Of a stretch of 41,408 nt of DNA, positions 2,652 to 38,518 are shown one piece after another. A program made the position numbers and the translations under genes. Source of the stretch: a virus; UHGV virus genome UHGV-1354657; one strand, written 5' to 3'. Below the pieces are notes generated by a model. That model worked only from the letters and a program-made list of their open reading frames with translations. It was not told the DNA's origin and searched no databases. Every line of letters begins with the position of its first letter. The first letter of the stretch is position 1.

Positions 2652-2695
2652 CTTTTCCAACCCCTTTTTTAGATTATAGTTAAAACATATTATTT

Positions 2696-2790
2696 AAACA
2701 ATATCGATATATTGTAATAATAATATTAAAATATTACTTAAATATTATATATACAATATTTAAGTAATATCTAAACAATATAAATATAAT
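2696..2790. promoter_or_regulatory. Intergenic operator-like region with ACAATAT motifs and a perfect 16-bp inverted repeat
   Basis: ATATTACTTAAATATT (2731-2746) and AATATTTAAGTAATAT (2755-2770) are perfect reverse complements separated by 8 bp. AACAATATCGATATATTGT is a palindrome at about 2696-2714. Confidence 0.45.
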
Positions 2791-2795
2791 ATTAT

Positions 2796-3128
2796 TTACT
2801 TTTTCTTAGTCTTATTTCTTCTATTTCTCTCATTGTATATATTTAAATTCTCTTCTTTTATAGTGACATCAGATAAAATTTGAGTTAGTATATCACTTAA
2901 TAATTTACTAACGTCGCTGTTCATATCAATAGAAAAAGATTTTAATTTGTTTACAAGCTCCTCATCAAGCGTTGCACTCATAGTCACTTTTTTACTTTTC
3001 TTATTAACTAAATTATATATGTTTAATGTCTTATTGTCTGTAGTTGTAGAATCATTTTGTGCGATTGTTCCATTTTTCAAAATCGGTTTTTCCTTATCAA
3101 CTAAAAGGTCTCTGTTGAAACTTGGCAT
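2796..3128 (-). CDS. ParG/CopG-like ribbon-helix-helix partition (centromere-binding) protein
   Basis: 110 aa; the RHH-like segment KKVTMSATLDEELVNKLKSFSIDMNSDVSKLLSDIL. Its ATG abuts the parA stop (TAGATG), so it is translationally coupled downstream of parA. Confidence 0.55.
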   Translation of the reverse strand: MPSFNRDLLVDKEKPILKNGTIAQNDSTTTDNKTLNIYNLVNKKSKKVTMSATLDEELVNKLKSFSIDMNSDVSKLLSDILTQILSDVTIKEENLNIYNERNRRNKTKKK

Positions 3129-3938
3129 CTATAACACTCCTTTTCTTTTCAATTCTTCTAACATATTAGTAAATTCCTGTCTGCTGAAATGCTCTTTAGT
3201 TATTTTTGTATAATCTGTTAGAGATAGTTTTTTCAATAGTGCCTTCTCTATAAACTCATTTTTTCTAATGTATGTATCTAACATAATATCCCTCATATCG
3301 TTAAACCCTTCCAGATAAGAATCGAAAGTATCGCTAATTTGAGTTTTCTTCTTCTCAAATCCAACTAAAATAGTACTTTTTATATTATCCTCCTTATCAA
3401 AATAGGTTCTATCAACATCCCAGAGTTGTTTAAATAATTCTGCTCCTCTTAAAGAAGAAATGTTTTTATCTTGAATTGGAATAATTATACTATCTGCTAA
3501 GAAAAGCACATTTTTAGCTGTCAAATCGTAGCGTGGAGATAAATCACAGATAATATAATCATACTCACTCAAAGTATTAAAGTTTTGCATGTACCAGCGA
3601 GCTAAAAATTTTTCTCTGGCTGGTAAAGGTGATAGCTCTTGTTCAAATCTAGCCATTTGTATGTCAGAAGGAATTAAGTCTACATTAATGTAATTTCCAT
3701 TAGGTGACTTGACTATTGCATCATTAGCACTAATCCCTTTTAAAATATCTAATGTAGTATTATCATTATGATTTATTTCATAAACATATTGTGTTAGATT
3801 TGCTTGCACATCTAAGTCCCATAAGAGTATTTTTTTATCTTTATCTTTCGCAAGTTCATACGCTGTCATTATAGACGTTGTTGTCTTATAGATACCTCCT
3901 TTTATGTTAAAGTACGTAAGTAGCTTTGTATTAGCCAT
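3129..3938 (-). CDS. parA: ParA/Soj-family partition ATPase
   Basis: Deviant Walker A NIKGGIYKTTTS, then DLDVQANLT and the usual ParA layout. ATG at 3938 is preceded by GAGGTGGAG (the track starts at an upstream GTG). Confidence 0.85.
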   Translation of the reverse strand: MANTKLLTYFNIKGGIYKTTTSIMTAYELAKDKDKKILLWDLDVQANLTQYVYEINHNDNTTLDILKGISANDAIVKSPNGNYINVDLIPSDIQMARFEQELSPLPAREKFLARWYMQNFNTLSEYDYIICDLSPRYDLTAKNVLFLADSIIIPIQDKNISSLRGAELFKQLWDVDRTYFDKEDNIKSTILVGFEKKKTQISDTFDSYLEGFNDMRDIMLDTYIRKNEFIEKALLKKLSLTDYTKITKEHFSRQEFTNMLEELKRKGVL

Positions 3939-3949
3939 TTTCTCCACCT

Positions 3950-4178
3950 CATTATTATATTTATAATATTATAACAATATTGTAGTATTGTTTTTATAAT
4001 ATTGCAACAATATATTAATATTGTTAATTACAATATTCAAATAATATAAATACAATATTTACATATTGCTTTTACAATACCAATATATTATATTAAAAAT
4101 ACTAAAATATTGTATATACAATACTAAAATAATATTTTTATAATATTACAGTATTATTTTTATATTATAGTAAAATTT
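3950..4178. repeat. parS-like centromere/operator array of ACAATAT / ATATTGT heptamers upstream of parA
   Basis: At least 10 copies in both orientations, including the palindrome ACAATATTGT and ACAATATattaATATTGT. This is typical for the site bound by an RHH ParG-type protein and the par promoter. Confidence 0.55.
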
Positions 4179-4216
4179 AAAAAAAAGAAGGCTAAGAAAA
4201 AAAGCAACCTTCTTTT
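4179..4216 (-). terminator. Rho-independent terminator of the peptide-AbrB operon
   Basis: GAAGG...CCTTC stem. On the minus strand it is followed by a run of 8 T; it sits immediately downstream of the 4227-4409 gene. Confidence 0.6.
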
Positions 4217-5901: not shown

Positions 5902-8067
5902 ATGGAAAATAATAATAAAAATAATATAGATAAGATGTTTTTAGAAGAATGTAGCGCTGAAAGAGCAGAGCATGAAAAAGAAAATTATTCAAATTTCAAT
6001 AGACATGAAACATATGAAATAAAAAAATATATAAACGAAAAAAAACTAGGAATTAAAACGGCTATAGCCAACGCGATAAATGGCGGGAAAACCCTGTTTA
6101 TTGCACCGACAGGAGCAGGAAAAAGTTATAGCTTTATAAATACATTAAAAAAATTAAAAACAAAAGCGTTATTCATACTTCCAAATGCCTCAAATGTAGA
6201 GCAGGCAATGCACGAGTATGATATACCAGGAGCATATGACAAAATACCTGTTAGCGAAGCATTTAAAAGTGGCAACTTAGTTGTAATGACTTGGGATAAA
6301 ACCGAAAAACTTATAAATACAGACTTAAGTGAATACATAATTGTAGTTGATGAGATACATCAAACTTATACAGATGCATATCGAGGAAAAGCAATAAAAA
6401 ATTTAAATAATATAATGTCTAAGTGCAAAGGAAGAATAGACATTACAGCAACACCAACAAAACTTGAATTTGAAATATATGACTACATAATAGAGTACAC
6501 TCAAAAGCAAAAAACAGAATATAAAGTTAAATTGTACAACGACTTTGACAATAAAAATTTTACTGAAATGATTAACATAATAAATAAATCTAAAAACAGC
6601 GCCATGTTGATGAATGATATATCAACATTAGAATTTATAAGAGATTCAGTGAACAAAAAAGTTGGAGTTGTATATGCAGATGGAAAAGAAGAAAATGAAT
6701 TGTACAATAGAATAGTTAAAAATTCAGACATGAAAGACTATGAAACGCTTTTAAATACAACAACAATCCTAGCTGGTGTAAATATAAACAACAAAGATAT
6801 CACAGATATAATTATTGTTAATATAAAAGATGTTGGAGCTATAAAACAGTATGTTGCGAGGTTTAGAAACTTAAAAAAAGTAAATGTACACATATTCAAT
6901 AAATATGAAGAAGAGTGCAATGTATACAAAATTGAATGGCTAGTTAACAAAAATATAGAAAAAGCAACTATCTTAAAAGATGCTTATAACAAAGTATCTA
7001 AACACATGTTACAGTTTGAAACAGTTGGAATAAATGCAACGCCAATTCGCATAGACTCAAATGTGTACTACTGTACAAAAGATAATTGCTATAAAGTAGA
7101 TAAATTATATATAAAAAGTCAAGTTTACAGCAACTATTACAATACAAGAACAATTCAAAGTTTTAAAGTGCTATTAGAAGAATATTTTGAAAATGTTAAT
7201 ATAACTGATGCTAAAGAAGTTGGCACAAATGAAAAAGAGTTAAAAGAGTACAAGAAAGTTGTAAAAGAAATTAAAGATGCAACAAGAGAAATTTTAAAAG
7301 AACATAAAGAAATTCTAGTAGGTTATAGACAGATTAAAAGCGATTCTAAGAGCTTTTCACTAATGCAGTATCATAATGATATGAAACTAAGTTCAAAAGG
7401 GTGCTTAGAGGCTTACAGAGCGTATGACATACATAATTTGGTAAAGAAAAGTAAAAGTAATAGCATGTTAGAACTATATTCTAATTATGTACTAGATAAT
7501 AAGTTCGACTTAGACCTTGCGTGGAAATTAGCAAATTTATCAAATCGAAAGCGTGGAGCAGTATTTAATAAAATAAATACTTTGATATATAGAGAATTAA
7601 AAGAAGAATGCCCAGAATTTTTAAATGATGAACTTATTCAAGTTACAGTATTTAATTTCATAGATAAGCTATTTGGGATTGGAACATCTTATACAGAACT
7701 TCATTTACAAGAGTTAAGTAACGACTTAAGAACGTTTTTAGGAGAGAATTGGGGGTTAAACACTAAAAAAATAGGTTGTATATTGAACGAAATTTTCGTA
7801 ATAGAAAAGAAAAAATATAGAAGTGTGAACCACTTAGAAAATATCTTTTTTTATAAAAATATGAATCCTAAGTGGTTCACAGTAGAAGTTAAACAAATAC
7901 AACTTAGCAATATAAAAAGATATGTAACTGTTGATGACATAAAAAAAGAATTAGAATTAGATAAAAAAGATAATAGCTTAGAGCGTGCTATAAAATATAC
8001 AAAAGATAGAATGTTAAACTCTTTAGATGAAGATGAAAAACTATTGCTATTAAAAGGATTGATGTAA
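5902..8067 (+). CDS. Superfamily-2 (DEAD/DEAH-box-like) helicase with a roughly 370-aa C-terminal domain of unknown function; candidate replication protein
   Basis: Motif I APTGAGKS, Ia LFILPN, II VVDEIH, III TATP, V TTTILAGVNI, VI QYVARFRN. RBS TGGAGGGA. No match to a named Rep family recognised from sequence alone. Confidence 0.8.
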   Translation: MENNNKNNIDKMFLEECSAERAEHEKENYSNFNRHETYEIKKYINEKKLGIKTAIANAINGGKTLFIAPTGAGKSYSFINTLKKLKTKALFILPNASNVEQAMHEYDIPGAYDKIPVSEAFKSGNLVVMTWDKTEKLINTDLSEYIIVVDEIHQTYTDAYRGKAIKNLNNIMSKCKGRIDITATPTKLEFEIYDYIIEYTQKQKTEYKVKLYNDFDNKNFTEMINIINKSKNSAMLMNDISTLEFIRDSVNKKVGVVYADGKEENELYNRIVKNSDMKDYETLLNTTTILAGVNINNKDITDIIIVNIKDVGAIKQYVARFRNLKKVNVHIFNKYEEECNVYKIEWLVNKNIEKATILKDAYNKVSKHMLQFETVGINATPIRIDSNVYYCTKDNCYKVDKLYIKSQVYSNYYNTRTIQSFKVLLEEYFENVNITDAKEVGTNEKELKEYKKVVKEIKDATREILKEHKEILVGYRQIKSDSKSFSLMQYHNDMKLSSKGCLEAYRAYDIHNLVKKSKSNSMLELYSNYVLDNKFDLDLAWKLANLSNRKRGAVFNKINTLIYRELKEECPEFLNDELIQVTVFNFIDKLFGIGTSYTELHLQELSNDLRTFLGENWGLNTKKIGCILNEIFVIEKKKYRSVNHLENIFFYKNMNPKWFTVEVKQIQLSNIKRYVTVDDIKKELELDKKDNSLERAIKYTKDRMLNSLDEDEKLLLLKGLM

Positions 8068-8120
8068 GAATTAGAAAAGAAACAGAGTCAAAAAAACAAA
8101 TGGAAATTTGCGTTTAAACA

Positions 8121-8185
8121 AAAAGTCAACGGGTCTGATTTATATATATATATATATTAATTTCAGACCCGTTGACTTTTTGATA
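8121..8185. terminator. Bidirectional terminator with a long perfect stem
   Basis: AAAGTCAACGGGTCTGA - (TA)n loop - TCAGACCCGTTGACTTTTT. Confidence 0.8.
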
Positions 8186-13233: not shown

Positions 13234-13596
13234 ATGATTAAAAAAGTAGAAAAAATTTTTAGTGGTTCAGTTAATCCGAAATTTATGGAAGATGACCCAA
13301 CTTTTAAAAATTATTTAGCGTTATATTGTTGCATAAAACCGGTTAAAGTTCATGGAAATAAAAAGGTTTTGGCTAGTTCTACTAAGGCATGTAGTGCATT
13401 GAAAATTAGAGAGCATCAGAAAAAAGAACGTAAAAAGGTAAGACTTATAAATGCGAAAACAGGTGAAATAAAAGAAATGGCTATAGATGAAGCAGAAAAT
13501 TTTTTGAATGTTAAAAACTTGTATCCGGTTATTTGGCGAGGGAGACCAACTCGAACTGGTTGGTATGTAAAGGATGTTGAAGATGAAGGAGACTAA
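13234..13596 (+). CDS. Hypothetical protein
   Basis: 120-aa ORF. Confidence 0.55.
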   Translation: MIKKVEKIFSGSVNPKFMEDDPTFKNYLALYCCIKPVKVHGNKKVLASSTKACSALKIREHQKKERKKVRLINAKTGEIKEMAIDEAENFLNVKNLYPVIWRGRPTRTGWYVKDVEDEGD

Positions 13597-13753
13597 ATAT
13601 AATGTTGTGTATTTTGATTTAAAGACTTTAAAATTTAATGAAAAAAGTTTTGACACTTTAAAAGATGCTAGAGCATTTAAAAAAGAAAAAGAGAAAAAAT
13701 ACGAAAATGTTGAGATTATTAAAAAGACAATTATAGAAAAATTGATGGTATAG
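13583..13753 (+). CDS. Small hypothetical protein (56 aa)
   Basis: MKETKYNVVYFDLKTLKFNEKSF...; overlaps the previous gene's end. Confidence 0.35.
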   Translation: MKETKYNVVYFDLKTLKFNEKSFDTLKDARAFKKEKEKKYENVEIIKKTIIEKLMV

Positions 13754-13764
13754 GAAGTGAATTT

Positions 13765-14337
13765 ATGGCAAAAAAGAAAAGGATTTGTTCATGGTGTGGT
13801 AAGTCGTTTTTTACAGAGTCGAAAAATAGATTTTGCTGTAAATCATGCGAAAGAAAGTATAAAAAAGACAAAGAAAAAAACGTAAGTTCTTGCTTAGTTG
13901 AAGAAACCAAAGAATATTTAATTGAACTTGGAAATAAGAAAAGAAGAGTAGATATTCTAAGAAAAGAGATAGATTTTTTAAAAGATAAAGAATTTTATAG
14001 AGAAATAAATTTCAATGAATTGGGATTTAAAATACATTCTAGCCCGAAGGGCATAGATGAAATGGTTATGAATAATGAGGATAAAATATCATTGAAGGAA
14101 AGTGAAATTGATTTTATAGAATATAGATTAAGACTAATGGATATTTACATAAGTGAACTTACAGAAGAGAAACAGCAGATTATAAAATTCATGTATTTTT
14201 ACGATGGAGCAAGTAAACTTTCTAATGAAGAAATTGCATCAAAGCTTAAATGTAGTCGTAGTAATATTCATTATAAGCACGCAGAAGCATTGAAAGAACT
14301 GACTGAAATGCTTTTTGAAAGTGGAAGTCTTTTGTAG
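13765..14337 (+). CDS. Putative late-gene transcriptional activator (N-terminal Zn-ribbon plus C-terminal sigma-70 region-4/ArpU-RinA-like HTH)
   Basis: CSWCG...CKSCE, then LTEEKQQIIKFMYFYDGASKLSNEEIASKLKCSRSNIHYKHAEALKEL. Its position immediately upstream of the packaging module fits this role. Confidence 0.5.
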   Translation: MAKKKRICSWCGKSFFTESKNRFCCKSCERKYKKDKEKNVSSCLVEETKEYLIELGNKKRRVDILRKEIDFLKDKEFYREINFNELGFKIHSSPKGIDEMVMNNEDKISLKESEIDFIEYRLRLMDIYISELTEEKQQIIKFMYFYDGASKLSNEEIASKLKCSRSNIHYKHAEALKELTEMLFESGSLL

Positions 14338-14442
14338 AACAAAAAAAGACGGTTTTTAGGACAAAGTTAGAACACTCTTTTACGTTTATATAGTGTATAA
14401 TATTAATATCAAGAAGTTTAAAATTAAATAAATATAGATTTG

Positions 14443-14470
14443 AAGCCTAACGGAAATGTTGGGCTTTTAT
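14443..14470 (+). terminator. Rho-independent terminator
   Basis: AAGCCTAACggaaatGTTGGGCTT followed by TTAT. Confidence 0.5.
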
Positions 14471-14513
14471 AATGCAAATTAATATTAAAGGGGGCTTAAG
14501 AAGGTGAATAGAA

Positions 14514-15122
14514 GTGGGTAGTAAGAAGCCAGCTAACCCAATCAAAGACAAGCGCATGGCCTTAAATATTCAGGAATATTTGAAAGAAAAGAGTATTAGA
14601 AATTATGTATTATTTGTTCTAGGAATAGGTACTGGCTATAGGGCTGGGGATTTGGTTAAACTCCAGGTAAGAGATGTTAGAAAAGCACTAGACGAAGGTT
14701 ATTTCTTGATAATGGAGAGTAAGAAAGAAAAGACTAAAAACATAAGGAAGAAGAATAGGAAGCCTAGAAAAGCTCCGATAATTCCTAACTTAGAGAAGGT
14801 ACTCAAAAGTTATATAAAGGACAAAAAAGATTATGAATATATGTTCCCATCCAGGCAAAAGTCTGTTACTCCATATATAGGTGTTGAGAGAGTAACAGTA
14901 ATACTGAAAGAGGCTGGTAGGCACTTTGGGCTTAAACATATAACAGCACATAGTATGCGTAAAACATATGCTCATACTATATACGAAGAGAGTGGGTTTG
15001 ACATTATAATGGTCAAGGAAATGCTTGGACATTCTAGCATAGAAGAAACTAAGGTATATCTAGGTCTTAATGAAGAACAATATCAAGAATATAGCATGTT
15101 TTTAAATGACCTAATAGGGTGA
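14514..15122 (+). CDS. Small (202 aa) tyrosine recombinase of the catalytic-domain-only FimB/FimE / RecV-like class
   Basis: GYRAGDL (box I Arg); HSMRKTYA (HxxR); LGHSSIEETKVYL (His...Tyr). It lacks the N-terminal arm- and core-binding domains of phage integrases. GTG start with AAGAAGGTGA. Confidence 0.75.
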   Translation: MGSKKPANPIKDKRMALNIQEYLKEKSIRNYVLFVLGIGTGYRAGDLVKLQVRDVRKALDEGYFLIMESKKEKTKNIRKKNRKPRKAPIIPNLEKVLKSYIKDKKDYEYMFPSRQKSVTPYIGVERVTVILKEAGRHFGLKHITAHSMRKTYAHTIYEESGFDIIMVKEMLGHSSIEETKVYLGLNEEQYQEYSMFLNDLIG

Positions 15123-15618
15123 TTTTTTTATTTTGTCTTTTTGAATGTTGGAAAAATAAAGACCTGCATGTTCAATGTATTTTTTTCGCTATATATAAAG
15201 TAGGAAAAGAAAAAAGTGAATGTCTGATTCTCTAAGAAAACCCCATATTCGTTAAAATAGGCGTTAGCCATTATAAATACTGGGATAGAAGCTATTTAAC
15301 GTTAAAATGGCTATGGCGAAGCTTAGAAGCTAATACGAACTATAATGCTAAAATGAGAAAAATAAAATACTATGCTAATGTTGTAATTAGAGAATGAAAA
15401 AAGAGTTTGATGCAACAAAAACTACAAAATTCACAAGCAAACAATTCAATTACACCCTTTTACAAGAGTAATGACAATACTTATAAGTACTTTTGATTCA
15501 TTTAAAAAAATTCACCGTATTCAAAACTGTACGGTATTGACTACGATTTGATTATGTAGTAAAATGAACATATAGAAGGTAGTCATAACTAATGGTCAAA
15601 AGTAAGGGGTGTATTTTT
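15123..15618. promoter_or_regulatory. About 500-bp non-coding spacer between the two recombinase genes (candidate res/recombination site plus resolvase promoter)
   Basis: Promoter TTGACT-17-TAAAAT (15537-15565). IR ACCGTA-N11-TACGGT. Direct repeats CGTTAAAATRGC. IR TAGCCATT/AATGGCTA. Confidence 0.4.
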
Positions 15619-16188
15619 ATGATATTTGGGTATTGTCGGGTAAGTAGTAAAGTACAAATTGATAATAATAGTTTAGAACAGCAGGAGCAGGAAATAAAAA
15701 GACATTATAGTGATGCTAAAATATTTAGGGAACAACATACAGGGTCAACCACGCACAGACCTATTTTTGAGGAAATGGTTAAGCAAATGCGTGATGGTGA
15801 TAAATTAGTTGTAACTAAATTGGATAGACTTGCAAGAAATGCAACAGAAGGTATTAATCTTATACAAAATTTATTTGATAGTGGTATTTCTGTTCATGTG
15901 CTTAATGTTGGGCTTTTAGAAAATACTACTCTTGGCAAGTTTTTTATAACAACCTTGCTTGCAGTTGCAGAAATGGAAAGGAATCTAATTTTAGAACGAA
16001 CTTTTGCAGGTAAGGAGATAGCAAAGCAAAATCCTAATTTCCGGGAAGGTAGACCTAAAAAATATACTAAGATGCAAATGGAACATGCTTTAGAGTTATT
16101 AAAAACTAATTCTTATACGCAAGTAGAGAGAATGACAGGGATTAGTAAGAGTACATTACAAAGAGCAAAGCGAAAACAAGAAGACTAG
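15619..16188 (+). CDS. Small serine recombinase (resolvase/invertase family)
   Basis: N-terminus [10 protein letters not shown] with the catalytic Ser; C-terminal [20 protein letters not shown] at 15619 after GGGGTG. Confidence 0.85.
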
Positions 16189-16216
16189 GTACTTAGTCTT
16201 TTTTTATTGAAAGGAG

Positions 16217-16924
16217 TTGATTTGTATTTCGATAAAAAATTCCAATCGAGAAAAAGCGTTTGAGATTTACAAGGAGAAAAATGGGAGAATAAAATTAATT
16301 GATATCTCTAAAATGTTAGAAGAAAAAAGTTGCAATATTAGTCGTTGGAAAAAAATTGATAGATGGGATTATAGACTTGGAATAAATAAGAAAGTTGGCG
16401 CACCAGCCGGCAACCAAAATGCTTTAGGGCATGAAGGAGGCGCACCAGCGAATAATCAAAATGCTAGAACTCATGGATTTTTCTCTAAGCTTTTGCCTGC
16501 TAGAACTTACGAGATTGTTAAATATATCGAGAAGGATGGTGGCAATTCTTTAGACATTCTCTGGAACAGTATAGTAGTTCAGTATGCGAAAATATTAGAT
16601 TCTTTTAAGATTACCCATGTCAAAAATAAAAAAGACCATACAACTGACATTAAGAAAAATGGTAATAAAATTAAAGAGTATGAAATTCAACACTCTTGGG
16701 ATAAAGTTACAAATGCTATGAAGGCAGAGGCGACAGCATTTAAAGCTTTGTCCAAAATGATAAAAGACTATGAAGAACTGCTTCATAAGAATTGGGATTT
16801 AGCAACAGAAGAACAAAAAAGCAGAATAGAAAATATAAAAGCGAGAACAAATAAGTTGACTGGAAATAATTTAGAAATAGAGGATATAGAAGAGATAGAG
16901 GCAGAAATTTATGGCAGTAACTAA
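16217..16924 (+). CDS. terS: Terminase small subunit
   Basis: Repeated GAPAGNQNALGHEGGAPANNQNARTHG motifs characteristic of Firmicutes-phage TerS; overlaps the terL start. The start codon is uncertain. Confidence 0.65.
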   Translation: MICISIKNSNREKAFEIYKEKNGRIKLIDISKMLEEKSCNISRWKKIDRWDYRLGINKKVGAPAGNQNALGHEGGAPANNQNARTHGFFSKLLPARTYEIVKYIEKDGGNSLDILWNSIVVQYAKILDSFKITHVKNKKDHTTDIKKNGNKIKEYEIQHSWDKVTNAMKAEATAFKALSKMIKDYEELLHKNWDLATEEQKSRIENIKARTNKLTGNNLEIEDIEEIEAEIYGSN

Positions 16925-18233
16925 GAAGAAAACTATACCTTTTCGATTTGGAGATAAACATAAGGAATATATTAGACGTTGCGCTAGTAACACATATAAT
17001 ATAGCCGAAGGTGCTGTAAGAGCAGGTAAGACGGTTGACAATGTGTTTGCTTTTGCACATGAAATAAAAACGTCTAAGGATAAGATACATCTAGCGACAG
17101 GGTCTACAAGTGCAAATGCAAAGTTGAATATTGGAGACGCTAATGGCTTTGGACTTGAATATATTTTTCGTGGTCAATGTCATTGGGGTAAATTTAAAGG
17201 CAATGAATGTTTATACATAAAAGGTATTTCAACTAAGCATAAGCAAAAGATTGTTATTTTTGCTGGAGGGGCTAAGGCTGATAGTTATAAGAAAATAAGG
17301 GGTAACTCGTATGGCATGTGGATAGCAACAGAGATAAATCTGCACCATGATAATACTATCAAAGAAGCTTTTAATAGAATTATAGCATCAACCAACCGTA
17401 AAATATTCTGGGATTTAAATCCCGATAATCCTAATTCAGCAATTTATAAAGAGTATATTGACAGCTATATGGAAAAAGATAAGAAGGGGACTTTACTGGG
17501 TGGATATAACTATCAGCATTTTACTATACATGATAATATAACAGTATCAGATGAGAGAAAGCGGGCGATTATATCTCAATATGACGAGGGCAGTATTTGG
17601 TACAAGAGAGATATACTAGGTCAGCGCTGTGTAGCAGAGGGGCTTATATATGAATACTTTGCTAATAATAAAGAACAGTTTAAGACTGAAACAGTTGACC
17701 CGCTTATGGACGTTATTATTGGAGTGGATTTTGGGGGTAACAAATCATATCATGCCTTTGTCGCAACTGGAATTACTTATAACTATAAAAAAGTAATAGC
17801 TCTTGCAAGTGAAAGACCTAGTGCAGATACCAGTCCAGACGAGTTGAATGCTTTACTTATAAACTTTATAAAAAGGGTAATAAATCTGTATGGTAAAGTA
17901 GATTATGTTTATTGCGATAGTGCTGAACAGGTATTAATACGAGGCATTAAAAATGCAGTAGAAAAAGAAAATTTAAATGTTAGTGTTAGAAATGCTTTAA
18001 AGAGTGCTATTAACGATAGAATAAGACTTACAGACTTATTAATTAGTCAAGGTAAGTTTGAGTATACAAGGTATAGTGAGACTCTTGTTAATGCCTTATG
18101 TAGTGCCGTGTGGGACAGTAAAGAACTTAATGAGGATATACGACTTGATGATGGTTCTAGTGATATAGATAGTTTAGACGCTTTTGAATATACGATAGAG
18201 AGAAATTTAAAAAGATTCATAAGGGGGGACTAA
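16911..18233 (+). CDS. terL: Terminase large subunit
   Basis: Walker A GAVRAGKT; typical size; overlaps terS. Confidence 0.85.
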   Translation: MAVTKKKTIPFRFGDKHKEYIRRCASNTYNIAEGAVRAGKTVDNVFAFAHEIKTSKDKIHLATGSTSANAKLNIGDANGFGLEYIFRGQCHWGKFKGNECLYIKGISTKHKQKIVIFAGGAKADSYKKIRGNSYGMWIATEINLHHDNTIKEAFNRIIASTNRKIFWDLNPDNPNSAIYKEYIDSYMEKDKKGTLLGGYNYQHFTIHDNITVSDERKRAIISQYDEGSIWYKRDILGQRCVAEGLIYEYFANNKEQFKTETVDPLMDVIIGVDFGGNKSYHAFVATGITYNYKKVIALASERPSADTSPDELNALLINFIKRVINLYGKVDYVYCDSAEQVLIRGIKNAVEKENLNVSVRNALKSAINDRIRLTDLLISQGKFEYTRYSETLVNALCSAVWDSKELNEDIRLDDGSSDIDSLDAFEYTIERNLKRFIRGD

Positions 18234-36049: not shown

Positions 36050-38518
36050 TTGAGAGATAGAATTTATACAGTAGATATTAATACTAAAAGTTATCAAGTT
36101 GCAAAATATAAGCAATATGATAATGGGATAGAGTTTAAGATTAATTTATTAGAAAATAATATAGAAAAAGATTTAACAGGATATACAGCTATAGCAAATT
36201 TTCAAAGACCAGATAGGAAAATAGTTTATCAGAGCTGTACTATAGAAAATTCTATTGTAACAACTCTGATAGAAAATAACATAACAGCAGTTGCGGGGGA
36301 TGTAATAGTAGAGTTTACTTTCTACAAAGATGATTTAGTTGTTACTACTTTTTCTTTAAAGATTAATATAGAGAAAAGTATAGATAAAAACAGTATTACA
36401 GAAGAGCCGAAATGGGATTATATCAGCGTTACAATAAATCAAGTAAAAGAAGTCGTCGAAGGCATAGAAGAAATAAAAGAAACAGAAGAAGCAAGAAAAG
36501 AGGCTGAGATTGAAAGGGTCAAGGAGTTTAATAGTATTAAAGAAACTTTCGACTCTAAAGTTACAGAAGTTACGGACGCTAAAAATACTATGATTAGTGA
36601 CGTTAATACTACTAAAGATACTTTAACAAGCGAAGTTACAGATGCCAAAACAGACTTAATTAGTGTAGTTACTACAGCTAAAGAAAATATGATTAATGAA
36701 GTAAGTGCAGTTAAAACAGAACTTGAAACAGCAGAAGCTGAAAGGGTCGAAGAATTTAATAGTATAAAAGAAACTTTTGACTCTAAAGTTACAGAAGTCA
36801 CAGACGCTAAAAATACTATGATTAGTGACGTTAATACTACTAAAGATACTTTAACAAGCGAAGTTACAGATGCCAAAACAGACTTAATTAGTGTAGTTAC
36901 TACAGCTAAAGAAAATATGATTAATGAAGTAAGTGCAGTTAAAACAGAACTTGAAACAGCAGAAGCTGAAAGGGTCGAAGAATTTAATAGTATAAAAGAA
37001 ACTTTTGACTCTAAAGTTACAGAAGTCACAGACGCTAAAGAAAACATGATTAGTGACGTTAATACTACTAAAGATACTTTAATAGACGAAGTTAACACAG
37101 TTAAAACAGAAGTTATAACAGCTAAAAATAATATGATTAGTGAAGTAACAACAGCAAAAGAAACTATGCAGACAGAAGTTACAGACGCTATTAATGCAAT
37201 CCCCGCAAAAGAAGAATTAAAAGGGGTTGGAATAGAAATAAAAGGAAGTTTAGATAATATATCAGCACTTCCAACTAATCCGACTTTAAGTGATGCTTAC
37301 TTTGTAAAAAGTGCTACAATAGAAAATCAAATTGATTTGTATGTGTGGGATAATACCAGTTGGATTAAAGTTCCTGATATAAAAATCAAAGGTGAAAATG
37401 GGGATAATTTAGAGTTTAATTGGAATAGTACACAGCTAGGTGTTAGGGTAGAAGGTCAAACAGATTATAGCTATGTTGACCTAAAAGGTCAAAAAGGTGA
37501 TAAAGGGGATAGTATAGAATTTATTTGGAATAACACGGAGTTAGGTGTTAAAACAGAAGGTCAAGAAAATTATAGTTATACAGAATTGAAAGGGGAGCAG
37601 GGCTATACTCCAATAATCGGCGAAAACGGTAATTGGTGGATTAATAATATAGATACCAAAAAACCAGCTAGAGGGGCATCTTTGAGGATTTTAGGAAAAT
37701 TAGATTCTATAGATAATTTACCATTAGACCCTACTATCGGAGATTGCTGGATTATAGGGAGAAATATTTATATATATCAAACTAAATGGGAAGACTTAGG
37801 TTCTCTAGCGGGCGTGGACGGCAAGAACTTAGAATTTAATTGGGATGGCACGCAGTTAGGCGTTAGGCAACAATACGAATTAGATTATAAGTATATAGAC
37901 CTCAAAGGGGACAATATAGAATTTAATTGGAATGGTACAGAGTTAGGCGTTAAAATAGAAGGTCAAACAGAATATGTATATACCGATTTAAAAGGTCAAA
38001 AAGGTGATAGTTTTGAATTTAATTGGAATGGGACGCAACTAGGTGTTAGAGTAGAAGGTCAAGAGGACTATACTTATGTAAATTTAAAAGGAGCAACAGG
38101 AAATAAGCTGGAATTTAGCTGGAATGGAAGCCAGCTAGGTATTAGAGAAGAAGGACAGACAGAGTATGTATATACAGAATTAAGAGGGGAACAGGGTTAT
38201 ACTCCGATTATTGGAGAAAATGGCAACTGGTGGATAAATAACGAGGATACGGGAAAAGCATCTAAGGGTAAAGTTACTTGGAATGAGTTATTAGAAAAAC
38301 CAAAAGAGTTAGATTATACCAAAAAAACTACAACATTTAATCCGGATGGTTCTATAACAGATATTTTAGACTCAGCCAACAAGACTATAACTAAGTTTAA
38401 TCCGGATGGAACTATAGTAGACGAAAAATATATAGATAATGTATTAGTAAGTAAAGTAAAAACAAGTTTTAAGGGTAATCAGATAGAAGAAGTAAAAGAA
38501 GAAATAGAGGTGAGTTGA
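36050..38518 (+). CDS. BppU-like baseplate/tail fibre protein with a coiled-coil repeat stalk and C-terminal beta-repeat modules
   Basis: N-terminal RIYTVDINTKSY...GIEFKINLLENN (BppU_N-like). Three 76-aa tandem repeats. Six LEFNWNGTQLGVRVEGQxDYxY modules. TTG at 36050 sits 8 nt after GGAG (the track's GTG at 36041 abuts the RBS). Confidence 0.7.
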   Translation: MRDRIYTVDINTKSYQVAKYKQYDNGIEFKINLLENNIEKDLTGYTAIANFQRPDRKIVYQSCTIENSIVTTLIENNITAVAGDVIVEFTFYKDDLVVTTFSLKINIEKSIDKNSITEEPKWDYISVTINQVKEVVEGIEEIKETEEARKEAEIERVKEFNSIKETFDSKVTEVTDAKNTMISDVNTTKDTLTSEVTDAKTDLISVVTTAKENMINEVSAVKTELETAEAERVEEFNSIKETFDSKVTEVTDAKNTMISDVNTTKDTLTSEVTDAKTDLISVVTTAKENMINEVSAVKTELETAEAERVEEFNSIKETFDSKVTEVTDAKENMISDVNTTKDTLIDEVNTVKTEVITAKNNMISEVTTAKETMQTEVTDAINAIPAKEELKGVGIEIKGSLDNISALPTNPTLSDAYFVKSATIENQIDLYVWDNTSWIKVPDIKIKGENGDNLEFNWNSTQLGVRVEGQTDYSYVDLKGQKGDKGDSIEFIWNNTELGVKTEGQENYSYTELKGEQGYTPIIGENGNWWINNIDTKKPARGASLRILGKLDSIDNLPLDPTIGDCWIIGRNIYIYQTKWEDLGSLAGVDGKNLEFNWDGTQLGVRQQYELDYKYIDLKGDNIEFNWNGTELGVKIEGQTEYVYTDLKGQKGDSFEFNWNGTQLGVRVEGQEDYTYVNLKGATGNKLEFSWNGSQLGIREEGQTEYVYTELRGEQGYTPIIGENGNWWINNEDTGKASKGKVTWNELLEKPKELDYTKKTTTFNPDGSITDILDSANKTITKFNPDGTIVDEKYIDNVLVSKVKTSFKGNQIEEVKEEIEVS
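36503..37105 (+). repeat. Near-perfect 228-bp tandem repeats (2.6 copies) inside the BppU-like gene
   Basis: Copies start at 36503, 36737 and 36965; copies 2 and 3 are virtually identical. Confidence 0.85.

What the first reader, a model, noticed from the sequence alone, without database searches (positions are those of the whole stretch)
14514..16188. FimB/FimE-like mini tyrosine recombinase plus Hin/resolvase-size serine recombinase separated by a 500-bp repeat-rich spacer
The 202-aa tyrosine recombinase consists only of the catalytic domain (R...HxxR...H...Y), which is the architecture of DNA invertases such as FimB/FimE and RecV rather than phage integrases. It is followed by a 198-aa serine recombinase with its own consensus promoter. 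The spacer has inverted and direct repeats (ACCGTA/TACGGT, TAGCCATT/AATGGCTA, CGTTAAAATRGC x2). Candidate functions are dimer resolution for the plasmid form, or programmed DNA inversion/phase variation elsewhere in the element.
Basis: partly seen in the sequence, partly recalled or inferred. Interest (0 to 1): 0.55.

Follow-up and report, generated by a model that had tools for sequence, protein, structure and literature searches.

The report
Two unrelated recombinase modules, no invertase
In this phiCD38-2-like Clostridioides difficile plasmid-prophage the two neighbouring recombinase genes are not a pair: the serine enzyme is an ordinary plasmid-type resolvase with its own res site, while the 202-aa tyrosine enzyme belongs to a widespread, uncharacterised phage cassette whose two palindromic binding sites sit just ahead of the packaging genes.

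Summary
The window is a phiCD38-2-like C. difficile siphophage that is kept as a ParA plasmid. Both ORFs, the ~470-bp spacer and the TTGACT-17-TAAAAT promoter are real. The listed repeats are present but are no more frequent than in shuffled sequence.

Serine recombinase (probably 189 aa, starting at 15619). It is a plasmid-type resolvase. About 55 of 65 homologues share the same upstream layout: an inverted site I over the -35 (window 15516-15545) and a direct-repeat site II (15579-15603), as in Sin res. Homologues occur in 1,544 plasmids but in almost no phages. It is an inserted cassette; a close relative carries a different serine recombinase at the same spot.

Tyrosine recombinase. It consists of the catalytic domain only, with R-K-H-R-H-Y invariant. 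It belongs to a family found in Clostridia, Bacillus and Streptococcus phages, always just after the late activator gene. It is always followed by two fixed-geometry palindromes: site A (15142-15174) and the lox-like site B (15217-15251). The family occurs in plasmid prophages and also in integrated prophages that have their own integrase. Published RNA-seq shows middle/late lytic expression.

No inversion was found: 73/73 and 24/24 loci share one orientation, and seven relatives show no flipped segment. The tyrosine cassette's function remains inferred.

The parts
13765..14337 (+). Context: late-gene activator, sigma-70 region-4 / ECF-like (LtrA type), with an N-terminal zinc ribbon. Equivalent to phiCD38-2 gp52.
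   Evidence: Pfam Sigma70_r4. NCBIfam sigma70-ECF, 1.4e-8. PHROG transcription regulator. The Sigma70_r4 LtrA family activates terS promoters (PMC3753634).
14442..14467 (+). Terminator-like hairpin followed by a U-run, between the activator gene and the tyrosine recombinase gene.
   Evidence: RNA fold dG -14.0 kcal/mol, z -3.8. Analogous promoter-plus-hairpin leaders are seen upstream of the recombinase in L007 and L008.
14514..15122 (+). Catalytic-domain-only tyrosine recombinase, 202 aa. Equivalent to phiCD38-2 gp53.
   Evidence: Pfam PF00589, residues 21-187. Catalytic R43, K70/71, H146, R149, H173 and Y182 are invariant in 24 homologues, and in Bacillus and Streptococcus homologues at 32-37% identity. 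AF2 model pLDDT 86; nearest solved folds are the XerA, XerH, Brujita Int and Cre catalytic domains.
15142..15174 (.). Site A: 33-bp palindromic site, TGAATGT-N19-(A)CATTCA type. Window sequence is TGAATGT...ATGTTCA.
   Evidence: Found at a fixed position after the recombinase stop. The span is 32 nt in 63 of 70 distinct loci, and A-left to B-left is 75-77 bp in 64 of 76 loci.
15171..15199 (+). Promoter-like element between A and B (TTCAAT-17-TATAAA). The -35 overlaps the right arm of site A. Status uncertain.
   Evidence: A conserved TATAnA box ends 17-18 nt before site B in 17 of 40 representative loci; L008 has TTGACA-17-TATAGA. However, forward and reverse promoter scores are equal (8.4 vs 8.2), so this is not established.
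15217..15251 (.). Site B: 35-bp lox-like site, 13-9-13. Family consensus is TGAATGTnTGATT-CyCTAAGAA-AATnnACATTCA.
   Evidence: The span is 34 nt in 71 of 76 loci. Arm positions 1-7 and 11-13 are near-invariant and complementary; positions 8-10 are free, with no G-U bias. The 18-base motif has 28 exact hits in 2.9 million viral contigs; 24 of them lie 98-111 nt after a homologous recombinase in the same orientation.
15252..15325 (+). Leader segment conserved among the seven aligned close relatives; function unknown.
   Evidence: About 100% identical in 7 Leicestervirus genomes. No Rfam hit. RNA folding z -0.67 and -0.28. One compensatory change is seen in L010 by eye. The annotated small ORF (gp54) is not conserved in the window.
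15326..15400 (.). Variable segment with indels. Probably the left junction of the inserted resolvase cassette.
   Evidence: Alignment A1, columns 228-300. L010 diverges from the window at about 15282 and carries a different cassette.
15516..15545 (.). res site I: CGTATTCAAAAC-TGTACG-GTATTGACTACG, a 12-6-12 inverted repeat (10 of 12 positions). Inferred crossover site. It overlaps the -35.
   Evidence: The same element, nGTGTCATAAC-TTAACA-GTATTGACACc, lies at the same position in about 55 of 65 homologue loci. Half-site variants change together within each locus.
15537..15565 (+). Promoter of the serine recombinase gene (TTGACT-17-TAAAAT).
   Evidence: Consensus scan, 10 of 12 bases. The position is conserved in homologues.
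15579..15603 (+). res site II: two direct half-sites, GTAGTCATAAC and TGGTCAAAAGT.
   Evidence: A conserved direct-repeat pair, GTGTCATAAC-TTA-GTGTCATAAG, lies between the -10 and the ribosome-binding site in homologues. Sin res site II is a direct repeat (PMC2428073).
15619..16188 (+). Small serine recombinase (resolvase), 189 aa; the mechanical ORF starts at 15592. Equivalent to phiCD38-2 gp55.
   Evidence: Pfam Resolvase 1.7e-31 plus an HTH domain. The alignment to Gin starts at residue 1, and its RVS motif (Ser9) aligns with that of Gin. Homologues at 50-61% identity occur in 1,544 plasmids, but only in this clade and two other records among 50,697 phage records.
16178..16203 (+). Terminator-like hairpin plus U7. 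It overlaps the resolvase stop codon and lies about 10 nt before the terS ribosome-binding site.
   Evidence: RNA fold dG -9.4 kcal/mol, z -2.7.
16217..16924 (+). Context: terminase small subunit, the first packaging gene.
   Evidence: Pfam Phage_terminase and PHROG 509.

Best explanation
Two independent site-specific recombination modules lie side by side at the early/late boundary of a plasmid prophage.

Module 1 (14514-15251, perhaps extending to about 15325) is a conserved phage cassette. It comprises a catalytic-domain-only tyrosine recombinase plus its own two palindromic binding sites. Site A is 33 bp. Site B is a 13-9-13 lox-like site. They lie about 76 bp apart at the head of the packaging/late operon. 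I infer that the enzyme is made in the middle/late lytic phase, binds A and B as dimers, and cuts and rejoins DNA at site B. That would recombine copies of the replicated phage genome, interconverting monomers and multimers ahead of packaging. Occupancy of A and B may also modulate transcription entering the late genes. It is not the integrase and not an invertase.

Module 2 (about 15400-16205) is a plasmid-type Sin/beta-like resolvase gene. It has its own autoregulated promoter and its own res: an inverted site I over the -35 and a direct-repeat site II. It was inserted as a cassette between module 1 and terS. It resolves multimers of the circular prophage so that the ParA system can segregate monomers during lysogeny.

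Shown: the anatomy, conservation, distribution and lack of inversion. Inferred: binding, catalysis and both biological roles.
For: Identity of the element:
- It is 94-96% identical to phiCD38-2, slur17, CDSH1 and to 41-42 kb circular C. difficile plasmids.
- ParA is at 3129-3947.
- phiCD38-2 is maintained as a circular plasmid (PMC6127314).

Module 2:
- The gene is present in only 11 of 90 loci that carry the tyrosine gene.
- L010 has a different serine recombinase (25% identical) at the same position.
- Homologues occur in 1,544 plasmids against 10 phage records.
- The site I / promoter / site II architecture is conserved in about 55 of 65 homologues, with concerted half-site changes.
- Sin has site I plus a direct-repeat site II and resolves plasmid dimers (PMC2428073).

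Module 1:
- 573 homologues were found, most about 200 aa.
- The catalytic residues are invariant out to 32% identity.
- A and B have fixed geometry in about 70 distinct loci.
- The arm pattern is that of a protein-bound DNA palindrome, not an RNA hairpin.
- The sites track the recombinase (median 64% identity) and not the upstream regulators, which show no similarity in 648 of 703 pairs.
- The B motif is essentially exclusive to this position across 2.9 million viral contigs.
- The cassette is kept in integrated prophages that have their own integrase: HM T, Javan207 and the C. intestinale chromosome. It is also kept in ParA plasmid-prophages that have no other recombinase, such as phiMMP04.
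- Published RNA-seq shows middle/late lytic expression: JD032 ORF003 alongside HNH and terminase, and CDHS-1 'integrase' in the late phase.
- A core site made of inverted arms around a short spacer, and multi-motif sites adjacent to the gene, are established for tyrosine recombinases (TnpI/IRS, PMC2847244).
Against: - There is no biochemical or genetic evidence for binding, cleavage or recombination by either protein.
- The central 9 bp of site B is conserved across distant phages. A mere crossover spacer would not need that, so it hints at an additional or different role.
- Sites A and B bracket a promoter-like region at fixed distance, which fits a purely regulatory complex equally well.
- The promoter between A and B is not statistically established.
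- Why an integrated prophage would need multimer/monomer interconversion is conjecture. A role in making packageable multimers rests only on analogy recalled from lambda genetics.
- phiMMP04-type plasmid prophages manage without a serine resolvase. This leaves room for the tyrosine enzyme to act as their resolvase.
Confidence: 0.6

Rival explanations
1. The tyrosine recombinase is the Xer/Cre-like multimer resolvase of the plasmid prophage, acting at site B during lysogeny. This is the assumption in the literature.
For: It is the only recombinase in ParA-carrying phiMMP04-type phage-plasmids. Homologues occur in 42 non-mobilizable PLSDB records, nearly all 31-43 kb. Site B is lox-like and adjacent to the gene. 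A review table lists it as Xer-like and presumed to resolve dimers (PMC8026635).
Against: The same cassette, in the same position, is found in integrated prophages that have their own integrase (HM T, Javan207, C. intestinale chromosome). Expression is middle/late in lytic infection. The phiCD38-2 clade acquired dedicated serine resolvases twice. The position next to the late activator and packaging genes is invariant, which plasmid maintenance does not explain.
Confidence: 0.2
2. The tyrosine recombinase homologue works mainly as a DNA-binding regulator, as a repressor, co-activator or antitermination loader. It would act at the late promoter by occupying A and B and looping the 76-bp interval, without productive recombination.
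For: A and B bracket a promoter-like box at fixed distances, with conserved A-tracts between them. The gene always follows the late activator gene. terS is preceded by a terminator with no room for its own promoter. The conserved 9-bp centre of B suggests more than a crossover spacer.
Against: All six catalytic residues are invariant across Clostridia, Bacilli and Streptococci, which argues for retained DNA cleavage and ligation chemistry. The promoter call is not above background. A hairpin plus T-run after B was found in only 9 of 32 loci.
Confidence: 0.2
3. A Fim-like invertible switch. The tyrosine recombinase flips the A-B interval, or another segment, to turn the late operon or another gene on and off.
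For: The protein is about 200 aa and catalytic-domain only, like FimB/FimE. The layout is recombinase, then a short element with a promoter-like box, then the operon. C. difficile uses RecV switches, and phiCD38-2 biases cwpV ON.
Against: The interior has the same orientation in 73 of 73 distinct loci, and site B has the same orientation in 24 of 24. The central regions of A and B are unrelated in either orientation. The interval is only about 76 bp. No partner site exists elsewhere. Seven relatives show no flipped segment. The Fim-type profile scores 25.8 bits against a 221-bit cut-off. cwpV stays locked in a recV mutant lysogen (PMC5386303).
Confidence: 0.04
4. The serine recombinase is a Gin/Hin/Pin-type DNA invertase, as several records annotate it ('DNA invertase', 'pinR').
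For: The best solved-structure sequence match is Gin (2e-22 against 1e-17 for Tn3 resolvase). PHROG 125 is labelled 'DNA invertase'.
Against: No inverted copy of its upstream site exists anywhere in the 41-kb genome. The upstream architecture is site I plus a direct-repeat site II, shared with about 55 homologues. Homologues are overwhelmingly on plasmids, including 5-14 kb ones. No tail-fibre segment is flanked by inverted repeats, and relatives have no flipped segments.
Confidence: 0.05

Closest known systems
Sin (pI9789/Tn552) and beta (pSM19035) resolvases with two-subsite res
   Same: A small serine recombinase with an N-terminal catalytic domain and a C-terminal HTH. The res lies directly upstream of the gene. 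It has an inverted-repeat site I and a site II made of direct half-sites, with a spacer between them. Sin's established role is resolving plasmid dimers (PMC2428073). The window's layout matches this.
   Different: The half-site sequence here (GT[GA][GT]TCAwAAs) and a 12-6-12 site I were defined only by comparison. HU/IHF dependence and activity are untested. Here the gene sits inside a phage late-operon leader. By sequence, the nearest solved chains are Gin, then Tn3 and gamma-delta resolvase, with Sin further away.
Cre/loxP of plasmid prophage P1
   Same: A tyrosine recombinase in a plasmid prophage, with a palindromic site of about 34 bp (13-bp arms around a short asymmetric centre) next to its gene. 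Cre catalytic domains are among the fold neighbours.
   Different: The window enzyme has no N-terminal core-binding domain (202 aa against 343). The centre of B is 9 bp, not 8. There is a second site (A) 76 bp away. The cassette also occurs in integrating prophages. Expression is late lytic. No sequence-level family membership.
TnpI / IRS of Tn4430 (and Tn5401)
   Same: A tyrosine recombinase whose roughly 110-116 bp target lies beside its gene and contains four recombinase-binding motifs (PMC2847244). From memory, in Tn5401 the motifs also overlap a promoter and give transcriptional control.
   Different: The IRS is an IR1-IR2 core plus two direct accessory repeats. Here there are two inverted pairs (A and B) with about 19-21 bp between their outer arms. 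TnpI is 284 aa with two domains and has a transposon rather than a phage context.
FimB/FimE (and C. difficile RecV) tyrosine invertases
   Same: Size of about 200 aa, essentially the catalytic domain alone. A 9-bp centre between half-sites is reminiscent of the fim inverted repeats (from memory).
   Different: No invertible segment and no orientation polymorphism. The profile score is far below cut-off, and Xer profiles score higher. RecV itself could not be retrieved for comparison.
Xer-family single-recombinase systems (XerA, XerH/difH, XerS/difSL)
   Same: These give the best sequence and fold matches: XerA 81.8 bits, PDB 4a8e and 5hxy, and fold neighbours 5hxy, 4a8e and 5jk0. The recombinase gene is adjacent to its site.
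   Different: All scores are well below the family cut-offs. The N-terminal domain is missing. The gene is phage-borne, not a chromosome dimer resolution system.
LtrA/RinA/ArpU late-activator-terS promoter modules of Gram-positive phages
   Same: The same genomic place and context: a late activator gene (Sigma70_r4 or ArpU) immediately upstream of the packaging operon (PMC3753634).
   Different: The cited paper contains no mention of a recombinase (0 occurrences of the word). The recombinase plus A/B cassette between the activator and terS is an additional, undescribed component.

Membership tests
Tyrosine recombinase superfamily (Pfam PF00589) | Catalytic domain match above the gathering score | tested here: met
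   76.2 bits against a 27.1-bit cut-off, residues 21-187.
Tyrosine recombinase superfamily (Pfam PF00589) | Catalytic R-K-H-x-x-R-H/W-Y constellation | tested here: met
   R43, K70/71, H146, R149, H173 and Y182 are invariant in 24 homologues. The R, H, R, H and Y residues are also invariant in Bacillus and Streptococcus homologues.
Tyrosine recombinase superfamily (Pfam PF00589) | Catalysis of strand exchange at a core site | not testable with these tools
   Needs biochemistry or genetics.
FimB/FimE-type tyrosine DNA invertases | Family profile above cut-off (NCBIfam NF007370 / NF007371) | tested here: not met
   25.8 and 20.4 bits against cut-offs of 221 and 222.
FimB/FimE-type tyrosine DNA invertases | About 200 aa, no separate core-binding domain | tested here: met
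   202 aa. The domain starts at residue 21. The AF2 model is a single catalytic-type domain, and its fold neighbours are 266-350 aa.
FimB/FimE-type tyrosine DNA invertases | Invertible segment bounded by inverted repeats, found in both orientations | tested here: not met
   One orientation in 73 of 73 and 24 of 24 loci. The A and B centres are unrelated. No flipped segments in 7 relatives.
Xer recombinases (XerC/D/A/S/H) | Equivalog profile above cut-off | tested here: not met
   XerA 81.8 bits against 220; XerC 61 against 335; XerD 56.8 against 330; XerS 49.8 against 267.
Xer recombinases (XerC/D/A/S/H) | Two-domain architecture (N-terminal core-binding plus catalytic) | tested here: not met
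   Only the C-terminal domains of 4a8e (residues 118-269) and 5hxy (residues 155-308) align. In the fold search, TM-score normalised to target length is 0.36-0.51.
Cre/lox-like simple recombination system | Roughly 34-bp site of 13-bp inverted arms around a 6-8 bp asymmetric spacer | tested here: inconclusive
   Site B is 13-9-13 (35 bp), with arm positions 1-7 and 11-13 conserved and symmetric. The cleavage positions are unknown.
Phage integrase (integration/excision at attP) | Gene and attP at the prophage end; site split in the integrated state | tested here: not met
   In the integrated prophages L007 and HM T, the gene, sites A/B and the packaging genes remain contiguous. HM T has a separate large serine integrase at its end.
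Small serine recombinases (resolvase/invertase) | N-terminal Resolvase domain, C-terminal HTH, catalytic Ser about 9-10 | tested here: met
   PF00239 at 109.7 bits. HTH_49 matches above its cut-off (35.8 bits against 27); HTH_7 scores 21.4 bits, just under its 23.8-bit cut-off. Ser9 lies in the GYCRVS motif, which aligns with the corresponding RVS motif of Gin.
Sin/beta-type resolvase with two-subsite res | res upstream of the gene: inverted site I plus a site II of direct half-sites | tested here: met
   Window 15516-15545 and 15579-15603. The same architecture occurs in about 55 of 65 homologues, with concerted half-site variation. Definition from PMC2428073.
Sin/beta-type resolvase with two-subsite res | HU/IHF-type architectural protein site between the subsites; resolution-only topology | not testable with these tools
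   A 33-bp AT-rich spacer containing the -10 lies between the subsites. No assay was possible.
Gin/Hin/Cin/Pin DNA invertases | Two inverted crossover sites flanking an invertible segment (plus an enhancer) | tested here: not met
   No second copy of the upstream site in either orientation in 41.4 kb. No inversions compared with 7 relatives.
TnpI/IRS-like multi-motif resolution site | Four recombinase-binding motifs within about 110-116 bp next to the gene | tested here: inconclusive
   Four TGAATGT-type half-sites lie within 15142-15251 (110 bp). They are arranged as two inverted pairs, not a core plus two direct repeats. Binding was not tested.

The most novel reading that the evidence does not exclude
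The catalytic-domain-only tyrosine recombinase and its paired A/B sites form a previously unrecognised core component of the late/packaging switch of many temperate Firmicutes phages, in Clostridia, Bacillus and Streptococcus, whether integrating or plasmid-borne. In this reading, a late-expressed site-specific recombinase or nickase acts at the head of the late operon. It would either make or resolve genome multimers for packaging, or license late transcription. In C. difficile, the same RecV-sized enzyme could also be the phage factor that biases RecV-dependent cwpV phase variation in phiCD38-2 lysogens.
Probability: 0.4. Interest if true: 0.75.

Novelty: new variant of a known kind. Interest (0 to 1): 0.55.

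Why it matters
Three points matter.

1. Annotation. Databases and papers call the 200-aa protein the 'integrase' of C. difficile phages and use it as a marker of lysogeny ('all known C. difficile phages encode integrases', PMC8619979). JD032 authors read its late expression as a tendency to integrate (PMC7205517). The comparative evidence says it is neither the integrase nor specific to lysogeny. That bears on how temperate C. difficile phages are judged and engineered for therapy.

2. Plasmid maintenance. The serine gene is annotated as 'DNA invertase/pinR', but it is best read as a Sin-like multimer resolvase with a defined res. Together with the ParA/iteron locus, this explains how the prophage is kept as a plasmid. 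It also gives a concrete target for curing or stabilising these elements.

3. Unexplained biology. A compact recombinase with a roughly 35-bp site, conserved across many phages and with concerted specificity variants, is unexplained biology at the late-gene switch. It is also a possible source of small orthogonal recombinases.

Tried and rejected
- Rfam scan of 13500-17000 at E<=1: no hit.
- RNA structure for the conserved leader: folding z-scores of -0.67 and -0.28. The A and B arms show no G-U preference and tolerate three mismatched central arm positions. The RNA-hairpin reading was dropped in favour of DNA sites.
- Search for partner sites for inversion or deletion within the window: 18-mers with up to 3 mismatches, window-wide repeats, and the A/B pattern. 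Nothing above chance.
- Lambda-Q-like layout (promoter, then B, then terminator): a hairpin plus T-run between B and the next gene was found in only 9 of 32 loci with a crude scan. Not adopted.
- Sigma-A promoter between A and B: forward and reverse scores are indistinguishable. Kept only as 'promoter-like'.
- Mosaic break-point mapping as evidence of natural crossover at B: break points run from the B centre to site C. The test is circular, because break points must fall where conservation ends.
- A/B as operators of the sigma-like activator: rejected, because the upstream regulators are unrelated in 648 of 703 pairs while A/B are invariant.
- Tyrosine enzyme as integrase: rejected on the integrated prophages.
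- The primary phiCD38-2 papers (PMC3133130, PMC4309704) are not held. Their content is cited only through later papers.
- RecV could not be retrieved for a direct comparison.
Full report
**What the window is.** The region 13700-16950 is 94-96% identical to Clostridium phages slur17, AR1075-1, CDSH1, phiCD111 and phiCD38-2 (genus Leicestervirus). The two ORFs of the finding correspond to phiCD38-2 gp53 ('tyrosine-type recombinase/integrase') and gp55 ('DNA invertase'). They lie between a sigma-like regulator (gp52) and terS. Near-identical 41-42 kb circular plasmids exist in complete C. difficile genomes. The window carries a ParA gene at 3129-3947. phiCD38-2 is reported to be kept as a circular extrachromosomal prophage (PMC6127314; PMC8026635).

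**Checking the observation.**
- Both ORFs exist.
- The 202-aa protein matches Pfam Phage_integrase over residues 21-187. It has R43, K70/71, H146-x-x-R149, H173 and Y182.
- The second ORF has Resolvase and HTH domains.
- A TTGACT-17-TAAAAT promoter lies at 15537-15565.
- The serine recombinase probably starts at ATG 15619, giving 189 aa. That start aligns with residue 1 of Gin and the resolvases. The ATG at 15592 is lost and frameshifted in phage Hain-Saunders-2022a.
However, repeat counts and the longest repeats in 15123-15591 are matched by 5-42% of dinucleotide-preserving shuffles.
- The ACCGTA/TACGGT pair is interrupted by a 1-nt insertion in five of seven close relatives.
- Among those relatives, 15123-15325 is almost 100% conserved, more than the flanking coding DNA. 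The stretch 15326-15400 is variable, with indels.

**The serine recombinase is an inserted plasmid-type resolvase with its own res.**
- Of 90 loci encoding a homologue of the tyrosine recombinase, only 11 have a small serine recombinase nearby. All 11 are C. difficile phiCD38-2-like elements.
- One of them, L010, has a tyrosine recombinase 93% identical to the window's. It carries a different serine recombinase (203 aa, 25% identical) at the same place, between the leader and terS.
- Homologues of the window protein at 50-61% identity occur in 1,544 PLSDB plasmids. These include Enterococcus, lactobacilli, Lactococcus, small C. perfringens and Bacillus plasmids of 5-29 kb, and one next to ParM.
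- Among 50,697 phage records, homologues occur only in this clade and two other records.
- I aligned the upstream DNA of 65 homologues from plasmids and genomes. About 55 share one architecture:
  - nGTGTCATAAC-TTAACA-GTATTGACACc, a 12-6-12 inverted repeat whose right arm contains the -35;
  - then 17 nt and a -10;
  - then two direct half-sites, GTGTCATAAC-TTA-GTGTCATAAG;
  - then the ribosome-binding site and ATG.
- Loci with variant half-sites (TAGTCA or TAATCA instead of GTGTCA) carry the variant in all four half-sites. This is what one expects of sites read by the adjacent protein.
- The window fits this layout. Site I is CGTATTCAAAAC-TGTACG-GTATTGACTACG at 15516-15545. The -10 is at 15560-15565. 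The half-sites GTAGTCATAAC and TGGTCAAAAGT lie at 15579-15603.
- This layout matches Sin: cleavage at an inverted site I, a regulatory site II that is a direct repeat, and resolution of plasmid dimers (PMC2428073).
- A hairpin plus U7 at 16178-16203 closes the cassette about 10 nt before the terS ribosome-binding site.
- By sequence alone the protein cannot be assigned to resolvases or invertases (Gin 2e-22, Tn3 resolvase 1e-17). However, no second copy of the site exists in the genome in either orientation.

**The tyrosine recombinase belongs to a conserved phage cassette.**
- A protein search found 573 homologues, most about 200 aa and 57-67% identical. Many lie on 30-45 kb contigs, but some lie on contigs of 0.4-4.8 Mb.
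- In a C. intestinale chromosome and in Maledivibacter, the gene order is: Sigma70_r4-like regulator, small ORF, recombinase, a gap of 275-390 bp, then terS/HNH, terL and portal. There is no serine recombinase.
- I fetched 80 IMG/VR loci and compared the DNA after the stop codon. All share the same anatomy on the same strand:
  - a T-run;
  - site A, TGAATGT-N19-ACATTCr;
  - an A-rich stretch and a TATAnA box;
  - site B, TGAATGTnTGATT-CyCTAAGAA-AATnnACATTCA.
- The geometry is fixed. Site A spans 32 nt in 63 of 70 distinct loci. Site B spans 34 nt in 71 of 76. A-left to B-left is 75-77 bp in 64 of 76.
- In site B, arm positions 1-7 and 11-13 are nearly invariant and complementary. Positions 8-10 vary freely and are usually mismatched. 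There is no preference for G-U over A-C. This is the signature of a protein-bound DNA palindrome, not of an RNA hairpin.
- Rfam and folding gave nothing.
- The sites go with the recombinase, not with the upstream regulator. The recombinases are 52-100% identical (median 64%), whereas the upstream regulator ORFs show no detectable similarity in 648 of 703 pairs.
- An 18-base version of the B motif has 28 exact hits in 2.9 million viral contigs. Of these, 24 lie 98-111 nt after a homologous recombinase, in the same orientation. The other four are one family of chance matches inside an unrelated gene.
- In the window the sites are A at 15142-15174 and B at 15217-15251. Taken alone they would not stand out from chance.
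- More distant homologues keep the principle:
  - Bacillus phage PfEFR-4 has an ArpU regulator overlapping a 180-aa homologue. It is followed by TGAATT-N21-AATTCA (33 bp) and TGAATTCATTTCTAAGGA.
  - Streptococcus phage Javan207 has three to four ATTGCAT motifs after its homologue.
  - The catalytic R, H, R, H and Y residues are invariant in these proteins too.
- An AlphaFold model (pLDDT 86) is a single catalytic-type domain. Its nearest solved neighbours are XerA, XerH, Brujita Int and Cre.
- Profile scores are highest for Xer families, not Fim-type invertases, and all are far below cut-off.

**What the tyrosine cassette is not.**
- It is not the integrase. In integrated prophages the gene, its sites and the packaging genes stay contiguous. 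Phage HM T has a separate large serine integrase at the prophage end, and Javan207 has a separate tyrosine integrase.
- It is not specific to the plasmid lifestyle, for the same reason. Even so, it is the only recombinase in ParA-carrying phiMMP04-type phage-plasmids, and it is present in 42 PLSDB records, nearly all 31-43 kb.
- It is not an invertase switch:
  - the A-B interior matches the family profile in the forward orientation in 73 of 73 distinct loci;
  - the B motif is co-oriented with the gene in 24 of 24;
  - the central regions of A and B are unrelated;
  - the window is colinear with five phage records and two circular plasmids, with no inverted segment of 80 bp or more.
- The literature adds that a recV-mutant lysogen keeps cwpV locked, so the phage recombinases do not flip that host switch on their own (PMC5386303). 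How phiCD38-2 biases cwpV to ON remains unknown.

**What the tyrosine cassette most likely does.**
- Two independent RNA-seq studies place the gene in the lytic programme. In JD032 (phiMMP04-like) it is a middle gene, co-expressed with HNH and terminase, and 'highly expressed after 45 min'. In CDHS-1 (phiCD38-2-like) the 'integrase' peaks in the late phase.
- Four lines of evidence point the same way:
  - the catalytic residues are invariant;
  - site B has the form of a tyrosine-recombinase core site, with inverted arms around a short centre (PMC2847244);
  - the position between late activator and packaging genes is invariant;
  - the cassette is present regardless of the mode of lysogeny.
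- Taken together, these make me favour a late-phase site-specific reaction at B between genome copies, interconverting monomers and multimers ahead of packaging. Site A would act as an accessory or regulatory site.
- A purely regulatory nucleoprotein complex at the late promoter is a serious rival. A and B bracket a promoter-like box at fixed distance, the 9-bp centre of B is unusually conserved, and terS has no room for a promoter of its own.
- The promoter itself is not established. A terminator after B is seen only in a minority of loci.
- On this reading, the presence of both enzymes in phiCD38-2 makes sense. The tyrosine enzyme serves the lytic cycle. The separately promoted, autoregulated serine resolvase serves plasmid maintenance.

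**Verdict.** Programmed inversion is not supported. The serine module is an ordinary member of a known kind. The tyrosine cassette is a widespread, apparently undescribed variant of a simple tyrosine recombination system, and its role is still open.

Noticed in passing
window 2676-2807 and 3941-4188, flanking 2796-3947 (-): ParA (3129-3947) and a 110-aa ORF are bracketed on both sides by arrays of AT-rich iterons phased at about 11 bp. The two arrays match each other in inverted orientation (83 nt, 75%). They are probably centromere (parS) sites of the plasmid prophage.
   Followed up: partly
L010:5133-5744 (IMGVR_UViG_2541047295_000013): A close C. difficile relative (tyrosine recombinase 93% identical) carries a different small serine recombinase (203 aa, 25% identical, best profile match to the Mpi family) at exactly the same position between the leader and terS. 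This implies repeated capture of resolvase cassettes at this spot.
   Followed up: partly
window 14442-14467 and 16178-16203: Two terminator-like hairpins with U-runs (z -3.8 and -2.7). One lies between the sigma-like gene and the tyrosine recombinase. The other lies between the resolvase stop and the terS ribosome-binding site. terS therefore appears to depend on read-through from upstream. Similar promoter-plus-hairpin leaders precede the recombinase in L007 and L008.
   Followed up: partly
L016-L089, about 15-60 nt after site B (class-1 loci): A third palindrome, 'site C' (ACGAAC-N23-25-GTTCGT, 35-37 bp), follows site B in about half of the family. In some loci it is followed by a T-run. 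Mosaic junctions between related phages cluster from the B centre to the left arm of C.
   Followed up: partly
L179:2016-3210 (Bacillus phage PfEFR-4); L098:15172-16370 (Streptococcus phage Javan207): Distant homologues (32-37% identity) keep the same module logic. A late regulator gene (annotated as ArpU in PfEFR-4, as 'transcriptional regulator' in Javan207) is followed by the mini recombinase and then by repeated short motifs. The Bacillus one retains a TTCTAAGGA centre resembling the clostridial site B.
   Followed up: partly
window 8119-8182: A 64-bp near-perfect palindrome (32-nt arms, 88% complementary) lies immediately after the DEAD/DEAH helicase gene (5902-8067). It could be a terminator or an origin-like element.
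   Followed up: no
window 36511-37194 and 39701-39962: In-frame tandem repeats inside the two tail-fibre genes: 228 nt x3 and 30 nt x7, plus 96-105-nt repeats at 37388-38202. These are probably repeat domains of receptor-binding proteins.
   Followed up: no
window 15312-15340; L002:4634-4741 (phiCD38-2 gp54): The small ORF annotated in the spacer of phiCD38-2, phiCD111, CDSH1 and AR1075-1 is not conserved in the window, where it stops after 8 codons. It is probably not a gene.
   Followed up: yes
LN881738.1 (L208): The record for Clostridium phage slur17 is titled 'Escherichia phage slur17' and lists E. coli as host, although it is 95.6% identical to this C. difficile phage over the queried 3.25-kb region (13700-16950) and aligns with the window over about 40 kb. 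This looks like a metadata error.
   Followed up: no
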